This document shows positions 45,801-48,800 of a stretch of DNA of 64,000 nt, one piece after another; position 1 is the stretch's first letter; the number at the start of each line of letters is the position of its first letter. The stretch lies in assembly GCF_013315695.1 (NCBI RefSeq), contig NZ_CP054353.1; one strand, written 5' to 3'. The DNA is from Escherichia coli (GTDB taxonomy: Bacteria > Pseudomonadota > Gammaproteobacteria > Enterobacterales > Enterobacteriaceae). A program made the position numbers.

Positions 45801-48800
45801 ACTTGAACTCGCACACCTTGCGGCGCCAGAACCTAAATCTGGTGCGTCTACCAATTTCGCCACTCCCGCAAAAAAGATGGTGGCTACGACGGGATTCGAA
45901 CCTGTGACCCCATCATTATGAGTGATGTGCTCTAACCAACTGAGCTACGTAGCCATCTTTTTTTTTCGCGATACCTTATCGGCGTTGCGGGGCGCATTAT
46001 GCGTATAGAGCCTTGCAGCGTCAACCTCTTTTTCAAGGAAAATTGCTCGAAAGTGACTGTTTGGTTAGGTTGCGAACAGCGTGGCGCTATATTCGTCAAT
46101 TATTGTTTACTTTGTGTTTTTTCCCCACCCTACAGCCATTCTTTTGTCATACAGGATGAAATTCGGAATTCAACAATAGTGGTGGGAAATTAATCTATGA
46201 AATACTGGCCCGTTGCAACAGGACAGGGCAGGGATCGCTACGCCTGCATCTCTGCTACCACTTCAGGCGATTTATTGAGGGAATACTATGCTGCGTTTTA
46301 TGACGGCGCTGATGGGTGCGTTATTACTTATGCAATCTGCGTTTGCCGATACGGTCAAACCGGAAATCGGTAAATATGTTTTTGGCTATCGTGGGCAGGA
46401 AGGCGCTGTGGTGTGGATGATGCGGATAGGGCCGAAAGCCTCTAATGAAGCCCTCATTCAGGTATCGCATGTTGATAATGACATCGATGGCCAGATTTTT
46501 CGCTGTAAAGTGAAAGCATTACAGGAAGGTGAAAAATCCTATACCGCCGTAATTAAGGGCAAATCTTTTGAGTTATTACGCCTGAAAGAGGGGAATGGCA
46601 GCCTGCATATTCCGGATGAGCAGGCGACCTGGTCGGTGGCCTACAGTGATGAGTTGTCAAACAGTGATGTGGCAAACCCGGAACATTTCCTTACTGCATA
46701 TCAGAATCAACAAGCACCTCAATAACTGAAACAGCCCCGGATTTTACCGGGGCTGTTTCGCATTTCTTACTTATACGCCGACTGGTGAACACCAACCGCA
46801 CGACCAGATGGATCGTCCATTTTTTTGAACGCTTCATCCCATTCGATCGCTTTAGCGGAAGAACACGCGACGGAAGGACCGCCCGGCACGCACTCAGCGG
46901 CGCTCGGAAGCGGGAACAGTTCTTCAAAGATCTCGCGGTACAGATACGCTTCTTTGGACGTCGGCGTGTTGTACGGGAAGCGGAAGCGGGCAGTTTCCAG
47001 CTGTTGATCAGAAACCTGCTGCGCCGCCACTTCTTTCAGGGTGTCGATCCAACTGTAACCGACGCCATCGGAGAACTGCTCTTTCTGCCGCCAGGCCACG
47101 CTTGCGGGCAGATACGCTTCAAAACATTCACGCAGGATGTGTTTTTCCATTTTGCCGTTACCGCACATTTTATCCTGTGGGTTAATGCGCATTGCCACGT
47201 CGAGGAATTTTTTGTCGAGGAACGGAACGCGTGCTTCCACGCCCCAGGCTGACATCGCTTTGTTGGCACGCGCGCAGTCATACATATGCAGGGCCAGCAG
47301 TTTACGCACCGTCTCTTCATGCAACTCTTTAGCGTTCGGCGCTTTGTGGAAGTAAAGATAACCGCCAAACACTTCATCAGAACCCTCACCGGACAGCACC
47401 ATTTTAATGCCCATCGCCTTGATCTTACGCGACATTAAATACATCGGTGTTGAAGCGCGAATAGTGGTCACATCATAAGTTTCGATGTGGTAAATCACGT
47501 CGCGGATGGCATCCAGACCTTCCTGTACAGTGAAGTGAATTTCGTGATGCACCGTGCCCAGATGGTTTGCCACTTCCTGGGCTGCTTTCAGATCCGGTGA
47601 ACCCGGCAGACCTACAGCAAAGGAGTGTAATTGTGGCCACCAGGCTTCAGAGCGTTCCTGATCTTCCACGCGACGGGCGGCGTATTTCTTGGTGATCGCG
47701 GAAATAATTGAGGAATCCAGACCACCGGAAAGCAGCACACCGTAAGGCACATCAGACATCAGATGGCTTTTAACGGAATCTTCCAGTGCCTGACGCAGCT
47801 CGTTTTTGTCGGTTACGTTATCTTTCACCGCATCGTAGTCGAACCAGTCGCGATGATAATAAGAACGGATTTCGCCGTCCTGGCTCCACAAATAGCTCCC
47901 CGCCGGGAACTCTTTAATCGTGCGGCAAACTGGCACCAGGGCTTTCATTTCTGAGGCCACATACAGCTGACCATGTTCGTCATAGCCCATATACAGTGGG
48001 ATGATCCCCAGATGGTCGCGACCAATCAGGTAGGCATCTTTTTCGCTGTCGTACAGGGCAAAGGCAAACATGCCCTGCAAGTCGTCAAGAAATTCCGGCC
48101 CTTTTTCCTGATACAGCGCGAGGATCACTTCGCAGTCAGATCCGGTCTGGAACTGATAACGATCGCCATATTCGGCGCGCAGTGCCTGGTGGTTGTAGAT
48201 TTCACCGTTTACTGCCAGCACATGAGTTTTTTGTTGGTTGTAGAGAGGTTGCGCCCCCGCGTTAACGTCAACAATTGACAGACGTTCGTGGGCGAGAATG
48301 GCGTTATCGCTGGCATAAATACCGGACCAGTCCGGGCCACGATGACGCATCAGGCGTGACAGCTCGAGTGCTTTCTTACGCAGCTCAACTGCGTCTGTTT
48401 TGATATCGAATACGCCAAAAATTGAACACATAACCTTCTCCGTTAACCTGGTATTTGTTGCTTGTTGTGTTTGCTTGTTTAAAAAAATGCCGCAAAGCAG
48501 CACCGTGCGCAAGCTATTTGGCAGTGGAAAAATAAAAAACGTAATGGCGATTGCTGATTTGTGAAAAAGGGGAGGGTGTGGTGACGTATTTATTGATGGA
48601 TCGATAATTTTTGGCTGGTTTTATTGAATAGGATGATTTTAATGATGGCTAAAAATAAGAAACCACGCCCTGAGGCGTGGTTGCTATTCAGATAACGTCG
48701 ATTTCAGCGACAGACGGGTAAATCCAGCTTGGGCGGAACGGCATACTGTCGATATCGTCGAGCGATGAAATATCAGAAAGCACCAGAATCGTCTCCAGAC

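What the first reader, a model, noticed from the sequence alone, without database searches (positions are those of the whole stretch)
46288..46725. Small secreted-protein gene between the tRNA operon and asnB
A 145-aa ORF with good SD (gaggg, 6 nt), a canonical Sec signal peptide (MLRFMTALMGALLLMQSAFA|DT) and its own terminator hairpin lies between the metT-operon promoter and the asnB stop. Tandem-gene spacing across the tRNA cluster matches remembered K-12 coordinates almost exactly, but the metT-to-asnB interval is 812 bp here versus roughly 380-520 bp remembered for K-12, so this is a several-hundred-bp indel that coincides with the ORF. I cannot assign the mature ~125-aa protein to a family by eye.
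Basis: partly seen in the sequence, partly recalled or inferred. Interest (0 to 1): 0.6.

Follow-up and report, generated by a model that had tools for sequence, protein, structure and literature searches.

The report
Exported barrel-protein gene deleted in K-12
A real, conserved gene for a small exported beta-barrel protein of unknown function lies between the metT tRNA operon and asnB; E. coli K-12 and about four-fifths of E. coli strains lost it through a 431-bp deletion, so it is an ordinary strain-variable gene that nobody has characterised.

Summary
Window 46288-46725 (+) is an intact 145-codon gene with a GAGGG ribosome-binding site, a Sec-type signal peptide and a strong hairpin after the stop codon. 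RefSeq already annotates it as "hypothetical protein" (WP_000943487.1).

The size difference from K-12 is a deletion in K-12, not an insertion here. K-12, O157 and four other ORF-less strains lack window 46211-46641 (431 bp) between two TGGCC repeats. They keep the last 27 codons and the hairpin, which also terminates the convergent asnB.

The segment is present in 985 of 5,426 complete E. coli genomes. Of those, 174 carry a 1-bp frameshift.

The gene is syntenic in other Escherichia species, some Salmonella and Pseudocitrobacter, and it is under purifying selection (dN/dS 0.04-0.08).

Function is inferred only: a periplasmic binding protein, possibly an inhibitor of a cell-wall hydrolase. Interest is modest.

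The parts
46288..46725 (+). Coding sequence, 145 codons plus stop. The product is a precursor of a roughly 13.8 kDa exported protein; RefSeq calls it WP_000943487.1 'hypothetical protein'.
   Evidence: for the ORF and annotation; for dN/dS 0.035-0.078; for homologues
46288..46347 (+). Codons 1-20, a Sec-type (signal peptidase I) signal peptide MLRFMTALMGALLLMQSAFA with predicted cleavage after AFA.
   Evidence: Read directly from the sequence. One search gives the hydrophobicity and shows that all 69 family members examined have an N-terminal hydrophobic segment. One search finds no lipobox. No dedicated signal-peptide predictor was available.
46277..46281 (+). Shine-Dalgarno sequence GAGGG, 6 nt upstream of the ATG. 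The block TTATTGAGGGAATA is conserved across genera.
46153..46249 (+). Upstream non-coding blocks conserved from Escherichia to Pseudocitrobacter: 46153-46167, 46174-46181, 46198-46206 (TGAAATACT, resembling an extended -10 element), 46224-46232 and 46241-46249. This is the putative promoter, operator and 5' leader of the gene; that role is inferred.
   Evidence: The standard two-hexamer scan finds no promoter on the + strand. No RNA structure is supported by covariation.
46727..46760 (.). G+C-rich hairpin in the 41-nt gap between the two convergent stop codons. It is a bidirectional terminator shared by this gene and asnB, and K-12 retains it.
   Evidence: -26.9 and -27.3 kcal/mol on the two strands. 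One search shows compensatory stem changes in strain 2/0.
46211..46641 (.). The 431-bp segment absent from K-12-type genomes. It spans the leader, the start codon and codons 1-118. It is present in 985 of 5,426 complete E. coli genomes.
46206..46210 (.). Left copy of the 5-bp microhomology TGGCC at the deletion junction.
46637..46641 (.). Right copy of the 5-bp microhomology TGGCC at the deletion junction.
46642..46725 (+). The 3' end of the gene (YSDELSNSDVANPEHFLTAYQNQQAPQ plus stop), which survives as a remnant in K-12 and the other ORF-less strains.
46532..46536 (+). An A5 run. A 1-bp deletion here frameshifts the gene in 174 complete genomes, and RefSeq flags those copies as 'frameshifted' pseudogenes. 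The run is intact in the window.

Best explanation
Shown. This is a bona fide, monocistronic chromosomal gene. It encodes a 145-aa precursor with an N-terminal Sec-type signal peptide. The mature protein of about 125 aa is predicted to fold into an eight-stranded antiparallel beta-barrel followed by a conserved C-terminal helix. It belongs to a widespread protein family that Pfam and NCBIfam do not describe. The gene is ancestral at the metT-asnB locus in the Escherichia, Salmonella and Pseudocitrobacter lineage. K-12 and about 82% of sequenced E. coli lost it through one 431-bp deletion between two TGGCC repeats. That deletion spared the terminator that asnB needs. A further 3% of genomes carry a frameshifted copy.

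Inferred. The protein works in the periplasm as a non-catalytic binding module. My preferred mechanism, at about 0.3 probability, is stoichiometric binding and blocking of a peptidoglycan hydrolase. The target could be a host lysozyme, a hydrolase delivered by a competing bacterium, or one of the cell's own. This is how the PliC/MliC, ACP and PhiA barrels work. If so, it does this through a different surface, because the PliC/MliC inhibitory motifs are absent. The stated confidence of 0.5 is a blend: about 0.9 for the gene, its export, its fold and the deletion history, and about 0.3 for the inhibitor-type mechanism.
For: Gene reality. The frame is conserved to 55% identity. dN/dS is 0.035-0.078. 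There are 214 family clusters at E <= 0.001. The two AlphaFold2 models reach pLDDT 83.4 and 89.7 with the same topology.

Export. The signal peptide is readable in the sequence. All 69 homologues examined have an N-terminal hydrophobic segment. In fusion proteins the domain lies after a transmembrane helix, opposite a cytoplasmic TIR or nucleotide-cyclase domain.

Deletion history. The junction ACTGGCC|TACAGTG is identical in 6 of 6 ORF-less genomes, with the 3' remnant and hairpin retained. The order ubiF, tRNA genes, this gene, asnB, nagD is the same in Salmonella and Pseudocitrobacter. No terminal repeats or transposase flank the segment.

Against: No sequence homology to MliC/PliC was found. 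PF09864 is not hit by any of 69 members. hhalign against an MliC profile aligns only the signal peptide, at 12% probability. SxSGAxY and Yxxx[TS]KG occur in 0 of 69 members, and 46 of 69 have no cysteine in the mature part.

The most conserved residues are R46, Q58, D63 and the helix motif F134-L135-T136-x-Y138. They lie on strands and the helix rather than in one protruding loop. That pattern fits a small-ligand site at least as well.

Fusion to TIR and cyclase output domains suggests a sensor role. The family also occurs in soil Bacteroidota. Most E. coli do without the gene. No expression data or phenotype was found in the literature searched.
Confidence: 0.5

Rival explanations
1. It is a periplasmic small-molecule binding protein or sensor module. 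The barrel and C-terminal helix would hold a small ligand such as a lipid, cofactor, metabolite or metal, as calycins, lipocalins and avidins do. The stand-alone E. coli protein would sequester or carry that ligand. In fusion proteins the same domain would report the ligand to cytoplasmic TIR or cyclase domains.
Against: Matches to lipocalins and avidins score lower than those to PliC-type inhibitors. The lipocalin GxW signature is absent from the translation. A barrel of about 90 residues may have no cavity, and model coordinates could not be inspected. No transporter or enzyme gene is conserved next to it.
Confidence: 0.3
2. It is an orphan immunity protein. It would sit in the periplasm and neutralise a peptidoglycan-degrading toxin injected by competing bacteria (type VI or contact-dependent systems). 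Its patchy presence among strains would reflect changing competitors.
Against: No effector, VgrG, Hcp or other toxin gene lies nearby in any of about 20 loci examined. It occupies a fixed core-genome position across genera and is under strong purifying selection, unlike typical immunity islands. There is no PADLOC or PHROGs match.
Confidence: 0.08
3. It is a small barrel enzyme acting on a periplasmic substrate.
Against: No catalytic family matches by sequence. No residue is invariant across the 69-member alignment. No pathway genes are conserved nearby.
Confidence: 0.08
4. The extra 431 bp is foreign DNA inserted into this strain by horizontal transfer or a mobile element, and K-12 shows the original state.
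For: The ORF's G+C content (46.8%) is somewhat below that of its neighbours (asnB 52.3%, whole window 51.1%). Only 18% of E. coli genomes carry the segment.
Against: K-12 retains the in-frame last 27 codons of the gene and the junction lies inside the coding sequence. The same gene sits at the same locus in E. albertii, E. marmotae, E. ruysiae, Salmonella and Pseudocitrobacter. There are no terminal inverted repeats, flanking long direct repeats, integrase or transposase. It is always single-copy and chromosomal. The 'plasmid' hits are mislabelled chromosomes.
Confidence: 0.02
5. It is a chance ORF that is not translated.
For: No experimental expression evidence was found. The consensus scan called no sigma-70 promoter on the + strand.
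Against: dN/dS is 0.035-0.078. Homologues reach down to about 25% identity in many phyla. The AlphaFold2 fold is confident. The Shine-Dalgarno sequence and start codon are conserved.
Confidence: 0.01

Closest known systems
PliC/MliC family of c-type lysozyme inhibitors (Pfam PF09864; Salmonella PliC 3OE3, Brucella PliC 4MIR, E. coli MliC/YdhA 2F09)
   Different: No sequence or profile homology was found. The SxSGAxY and YxxxTKG motifs are absent in 0 of 69 members. The barrel disulfide is absent. This family has an extra, highly conserved C-terminal helix (N-x-E-H-F-L-T-x-Y-L-x-Q) that PliC/MliC lacks. Genomes such as Pseudocitrobacter cyperus and Atlantibacter hermannii carry MliC as well as this family. 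Activity is untested.
Neisseria adhesin complex protein ACP (5MY7, 6GQ4)
   Different: ACP is surface-exposed in the outer membrane and keeps the beta1-beta8 disulfide (PMC5507604). There is no significant sequence similarity. ACP has no C-terminal helix motif.
Brucella abortus PhiA (7DPY), inhibitor of the bacterium's own autolysin SagA
   Different: There is no sequence relationship. Whether phiA is genetically linked to the type IV secretion and SagA genes was not checked here. This gene has no conserved neighbour.
Calycins: bacterial lipocalins, avidins, fatty-acid-binding proteins
   Different: Scores are lower than for PliC-type proteins. The lipocalin GxW signature is absent. A ligand cavity has not been demonstrated.
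C-terminal barrel of meningococcal factor H binding protein (4AYN)
   Same: It is the best Foldseek match in the PDB (E 0.036, TM about 0.4). It is a barrel that binds a host protein.
   Different: The match is not significant. fHbp is a two-domain surface lipoprotein, and there is no sequence similarity.

Membership tests
MliC/PliC lysozyme inhibitors (PF09864) | Match to the family profile, or detectable profile-profile homology | tested here: not met
   Pfam scans of the protein and of 69 family members gave no PF09864 hit even at E <= 0.1. hhalign against E. coli MliC and against an 18-sequence MliC profile aligned only the signal peptide, at 12-13% probability. The MliC profile was shallow (members 74-87% identical), which limits its sensitivity.
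MliC/PliC lysozyme inhibitors (PF09864) | SxSGAxY motif on the beta4-beta5 loop, which enters the lysozyme active site (PMC5507604) | tested here: not met
   A regular-expression search found it in 0 of 69 members. E. coli MliC has SASGARY.
MliC/PliC lysozyme inhibitors (PF09864) | YxxxTKG motif on strand beta6 (PMC5507604) | tested here: not met
   Yxxx[TS]KG occurs in 0 of 69 members. The E. coli protein has Y85-TAV-IKG, but across the family only Y85 (78%) and G91 (72%) recur.
MliC/PliC lysozyme inhibitors (PF09864) | Eight-stranded antiparallel beta-barrel | tested here: met
MliC/PliC lysozyme inhibitors (PF09864) | Disulfide linking beta1 and beta8 (PMC5507604) | tested here: not met
   The mature E. 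coli protein has a single cysteine (C73). 46 of 69 members have none.
MliC/PliC lysozyme inhibitors (PF09864) | Inhibition of c-type lysozyme | not testable with these tools
   This needs a biochemical assay.
Sec-exported protein cleaved by signal peptidase I | Positively charged n-region, hydrophobic h-region of 10-15 residues, small residues at -3 and -1, no lipobox cysteine | tested here: met
   The sequence shows R3, a core at residues 4-15 (mean Kyte-Doolittle 2.18) and A18-F-A20 before D21. No lipobox was found in 69 of 69 members. No dedicated predictor was run.
The unnamed family defined here (consensus RPEVxKYVKAY...GIDHxWD...LYLP...EHFLTxYLxQ) | Full-length profile match and shared predicted fold | tested here: met
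   There are 214 cluster representatives at E <= 0.001 and 106 at E <= 1e-10. There are 88 AlphaFold-database matches at E <= 0.001, with TM about 0.8 for the closest. Alignments are A2, A3 and A4.
Lipocalins (calycin superfamily) | GxW signature on the first strand, and an eight-stranded barrel with a C-terminal helix | tested here: inconclusive
Ivy (PF08816) and DUF4367 (PF14285), labels that public sources give to two homologues | Match to those Pfam profiles | tested here: not met
   Neither family appears among hits to any of 69 members at E <= 0.1, and P0028, the homologue labelled DUF4367, was among them. The labels were seen.
Mobile-element or genomic-island insertion | Terminal inverted repeats or target-site duplication, a transposase or integrase, and variable location | tested here: not met
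   Only a 5-bp microhomology flanks the segment. No mobility gene is annotated nearby. There is one chromosomal copy at the same locus in all 985 carriers.

The most novel reading that the evidence does not exclude
The gene is the E. coli representative of an undescribed, widespread family of extracytoplasmic beta-barrel domains. The family would act either as a new class of periplasmic inhibitors of peptidoglycan hydrolases, with a PliC-like fold but a different inhibitory surface, or as a new sensor domain coupled in some bacteria to TIR and nucleotide-cyclase outputs. E. coli K-12 would have hidden it from study because it carries only a 27-codon stump.
Probability: 0.2. Interest if true: 0.55.

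Novelty: new member of a known kind. Interest (0 to 1): 0.3.

Why it matters
The practical point is that K-12, the reference for E. coli gene function, lacks this gene. The gene is nevertheless ancestral, under purifying selection, and intact in important pathogenic lineages: ST131 carries WP_000943484.1, and the meningitis strain CE10 carries a protein identical to the window's. It has therefore escaped all K-12-based functional genomics.

It also marks a protein family with hundreds of sequence clusters, a confident predicted fold and no entry in Pfam, NCBIfam or the PDB. If the family proves to inhibit lysozymes or other cell-wall hydrolases, it would add to the known bacterial defences against innate immunity or bacterial competitors. 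If it proves to be a ligand sensor, it would define a new periplasmic input domain.

As it stands, it is one of many conserved hypothetical exported proteins, and nothing in the evidence points to an unusual mechanism.

Tried and rejected
1. Named-family assignment. Pfam on the protein, on 69 relatives and on a two-domain relative gave nothing. NCBIfam, PADLOC and PHROGs gave nothing for the domain itself. PDB sequence searches with the single sequence and with the profile gave only non-significant hits.

2. Homology to MliC. I fetched E. coli mliC, built an MliC profile and ran hhalign; only the signal peptides aligned.

3. Guilt by association. I examined about 20 loci from Dyella, Stenotrophomonas, Pseudomonas, Pectobacterium, Mixta, Superficieibacter and a Salmonella mobile region. 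Clustering of neighbouring ORFs found no shared neighbour beyond orthologous gene order. The only apparent cluster was antisense ORFs overlapping the gene itself. One follow-up call failed on wrong coordinates.

The narrower alignment found only 16 loci because a single peptide pattern was used.

5. A structured RNA or riboswitch in the leader. Rfam found nothing, and RNAalifold gave no covariation support.

6. The 58-codon ORF at 46197-46373 overlapping the start. It is not conserved: it is frameshifted in Salmonella and stops after 3 codons in Pseudocitrobacter.

7. A mobile-element origin. No repeats support it.

8. Plasmid carriage. The hits are chromosomes mislabelled as plasmids.

9. Isoelectric point as a clue to lysozyme binding. 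It is uninformative: the family median is 6.6, with a range of 4.7-9.9.

10. Literature. Searches by accession numbers, UniProt identifiers, motif strings and locus terms returned nothing relevant.
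Full report
**What is there.** The window around the finding is the E. coli ubiF / glnX-glnV-metU-glnW-glnU-leuW-metT / asnB / nagD region. Seven tRNA genes lie on the - strand at 45251-45954. asnB lies on the - strand and ends at 46767. GAGGG sits at 46277-46281, 6 nt before the ATG. The first 20 residues, MLRFMTALMGALLLMQSAFA, have the form of a signal peptidase I substrate: one arginine, a 12-residue hydrophobic core with mean Kyte-Doolittle 2.18, and A-F-A before the predicted cleavage site, with no lipobox. 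A 13-14 bp G+C-rich hairpin lies at 46727-46760 and folds at about -27 kcal/mol on either strand (z about -7.6). RefSeq annotates the same ORF as "hypothetical protein" WP_000943487.1 in a genome identical to the window over this interval, and also in strain CE10.

**The difference from K-12 is a deletion in K-12.** The 812-bp metT-asnB interval is found at full length in 985 of 5,426 complete E. coli genomes. The rest, including MG1655 and O157, have about 379 bp. Alignment shows that these genomes lack window 46211-46641 (431 bp). Six ORF-less genomes from different backgrounds were checked: K-12, O157, GF4-3, TUM1886, a dog isolate and EC11. All have the identical junction ACTGGCC|TACAGTG, and the pentamer TGGCC occurs at both edges of the missing segment (46206-46210 and 46637-46641).

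The ORF-less genomes still carry, in frame, the last 27 codons of the gene (YSDELSNSDVANPEHFLTAYQNQQAPQ, then stop) and the hairpin. There are no terminal inverted repeats, long direct repeats or mobility genes. Every carrier has one chromosomal copy. The apparent plasmid hits are records of 0.3-4.9 Mb, which I read as mislabelled chromosomes.

The gene occupies the same position, between the tRNA operon and asnB, in Pseudocitrobacter and in some Salmonella enterica. Other Escherichia species encode proteins 90-92% identical. Presence is therefore ancestral, and the K-12 state arose by a microhomology-mediated deletion.

The deletion allele also sits on divergent flanks. GF4-3 differs at several positions in the remnant. 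TUM1886 combines a K-12-like remnant with the downstream flank seen in strain 2/0. Either the deletion is old and has moved by recombination, or it has recurred at the same repeats. I could not distinguish these two.

**The terminator.** The hairpin fills the 41-nt gap between the two convergent stop codons and is equally stable on both strands. Strain 2/0 has compensatory changes in the stem (CAG...CTG becomes TTG...CAA). It is best read as a bidirectional terminator shared with asnB. That would explain why the deletion that survived is one that left the hairpin intact. This last step is inference.

**It is a real, selected gene, but E. coli is losing it.** Between the window and strain 2/0 there are 14 synonymous and 2 non-synonymous differences (dN/dS 0.035). 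Strain 2/0 carries WP_000943484.1, the same allele as an ST131 isolate. Against Salmonella dN/dS is 0.078. Against Pseudocitrobacter the synonymous sites are saturated while the protein stays 70% identical. The carriers fall into two main allele groups: 414 genomes at >= 99% identity to the window and 567 at about 97.4%, the latter including ST131. However, 174 of 981 carriers have lost one A from the A5 run at 46532-46536, and RefSeq flags those copies as frameshifted. At most about 15% of complete E. coli genomes therefore have an intact copy.

**The family.** The single-sequence search found only enterobacterial relatives. A profile search of 1.84 billion representatives found 214 clusters at E <= 0.001 and 106 at E <= 1e-10. 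The AlphaFold database holds 88 structural matches at E <= 0.001. They come from Atlantibacter, Yersinia, Pantoea, Brenneria, Dyella, Xanthomonas, Pseudomonas, Rhizobium, Duganella and Bacteroidota, and nearly all are "uncharacterized", "lipoprotein" or "secreted protein".

None of 69 aligned members hits any Pfam family at E <= 0.001. NCBIfam, PADLOC, PHROGs and PDB sequences give nothing for the domain either. Two source labels, "DUF4367 domain-containing" and "Ivy", are not reproduced by the Pfam scan. The family consensus is RPEVxKYVKAY-G-EG--V---R-GP----EALVQ--GIDHxWD-KI ... Y ... G ... LYLP ... Y---LS----PEHFLTxYLxQ. The best-conserved positions are P25, R46, G48, D63, L135, Y138 and Q141.

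**Fold.** Two AlphaFold2 runs agree: 15 close sequences gave pLDDT 83.4, and 69 diverse sequences gave pLDDT 89.7 with pTM 0.76. Both show a signal-peptide helix, eight beta strands between residues 27 and 119, a one-turn helix and a C-terminal helix at 131-142.

**Membership of PliC/MliC fails.** The features that define that family are the PF09864 profile, the SxSGAxY loop, the YxxxTKG strand motif and the beta1-beta8 disulfide (PMC5507604). All were tested and none is met. There is no profile hit. hhalign against MliC aligns only the signal peptide, at 12% probability, although that MliC profile was shallow (members 74-87% identical). Both motifs occur in 0 of 69 members, and 46 of 69 have no cysteine in the mature part. 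Pseudocitrobacter cyperus and Atlantibacter hermannii have MliC as well as a member of this family. "Works like PliC" remains possible, and ACP is a precedent for a motif-less inhibitor barrel (PMC5507604). "Is a PliC" is rejected.

**Other clues to function.** The gene has no conserved neighbours. About 20 loci in distant genera show unrelated flanks: lpxC/dciA, fhuE/ptsG, a diguanylate cyclase, rimK, a chemoreceptor and others.

Rare multidomain relatives place the domain outside the membrane, after a transmembrane helix, opposite a cytoplasmic TIR domain (P0118) or a class III nucleotide cyclase (P0078). Others carry it in tandem (P0056). Others place it after an SH3/Tudor-like domain, by my reading of the sequence, which was not confirmed by a profile hit (P0136, P0188). 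Others place it before a Cys-rich domain of about 130 aa (P0122, P0131, P0143, P0163). This supports two points: the domain is extracytoplasmic, and it is an autonomous binding or sensing module. It does not identify what is bound.

**Best explanation and its limits.** The following are shown:
- a genuine exported protein gene;
- its membership of an undescribed family with a predicted eight-stranded barrel plus helix;
- its ancestral position at this locus;
- its loss from most E. coli by one 431-bp deletion and from others by a frameshift.

The mode of action is inferred. I favour a non-catalytic periplasmic binder that blocks a peptidoglycan hydrolase, at about 0.3. The nearest structural analogues, the stand-alone gene arrangement and the compartment all match the known inhibitor families. 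A small-ligand binding or sensor role is about equally likely (0.3), given the conserved polar and aromatic residues on strands and the helix and the sensor-like fusions. An orphan immunity role and an enzymatic role are minor alternatives. Foreign-DNA insertion and chance ORF are effectively excluded.

**Novelty and interest.** The gene's existence is already recorded in RefSeq, so the finding is not a new gene. What is new is modest: the polarity and mechanism of the K-12 difference, the population figures, the breadth of the family and its predicted fold. A specialist would not be surprised by a conserved hypothetical periplasmic protein that K-12 lacks. It would become interesting only if biochemistry showed a new inhibitor or sensor class. 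I score interest at 0.3.

Noticed in passing
window 46532-46536: A 1-bp deletion in this A5 run frameshifts the gene in 174 of 981 carrier genomes, for example strain 550, where RefSeq marks it 'frameshifted'. This is a second, independent route of loss besides the 431-bp deletion. I did not determine which lineage carries it.
   Followed up: partly
window 46197-46210 joined to 46642-46729 (as in K-12, locus L002 from 1741): In K-12 the deletion fuses an upstream ATG to the +1 frame of the remnant. This creates a 33-codon ORF, MKYWPTVMSCQTVMWQTRNISLLHIRINKHLNN, that ends just before the hairpin. It is probably meaningless, but it lies downstream of the retained conserved upstream blocks.
   Followed up: partly
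window 46153-46249: Five non-coding blocks upstream of the gene are identical from Escherichia to Pseudocitrobacter, although synonymous sites between these genera are saturated. One block, TGAAATACT at 46198-46206, resembles an extended -10 element. ATGAAAT(T/A)C occurs twice, 41 bp apart. No regulator was identified. Blocks up to 46210 are retained in K-12.
   Followed up: partly
window 46205-46226: A near-palindrome, CTGGCCCGTTGCAACAGGACAG with the perfect core GTTGCAAC, spans the left deletion breakpoint. It is not conserved in Salmonella or Pseudocitrobacter. It might have favoured slippage between the TGGCC repeats.
   Followed up: no
window 45070-45111, and L004 1003-1983: A G+C-rich inverted repeat (CCCCTCGCCC ... 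GGGTGAGGGG, resembling a REP element) lies in the ubiF-glnX spacer. In strain GF4-3 an IS621 (IS110-like) element is inserted in that same spacer.
   Followed up: no
window 46474-46491 (residues D63-G68): The enterobacterial subfamily has D-N-D-I-D-G, which matches the DxDxDG calcium-binding loop pattern. Across the whole family only the first Asp (91%) and the fifth position (68%) are conserved, so a metal site is speculative.
   Followed up: partly
L010 6001-6429 (Superficieibacter sp. HKU1); also L021, L022: Superficieibacter carries a 142-aa paralogue of the family, 52-54% identical, between a TonB-dependent receptor gene and ptsG. Superficieibacter electus has both this paralogue and a closer homologue (P0032, 71% identical). 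P0032's genomic location was not examined.
   Followed up: partly
L011 6001-6465 (Salmonella Oranienburg contig): A distant family member, 154 aa and 30% identical, lies near TraC-like conjugation genes and an Ail/Lom-like outer-membrane protein gene. Some members are therefore carried on mobile DNA, unlike the E. coli gene.
   Followed up: no
proteins P0118, P0078, P0099 (not in the window): The domain is fused to a TIR domain and to a nucleotide cyclase across a transmembrane helix, and to the C-terminus of a fungal-looking receiver-domain protein. The eukaryotic fusions (also Blastobotrys and Diploscapter entries in the AlphaFold database) could be genuine or could be assembly chimeras.
   Followed up: partly
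window 45220-45245: A perfect 11-bp inverted repeat, AAAAAGCTCGC/GCGAGCTTTTT, lies just downstream (on the - strand) of the last tRNA-Gln gene. It is the expected terminator of the metT tRNA operon, and it produced weak spurious Rfam sRNA hits.
   Followed up: no
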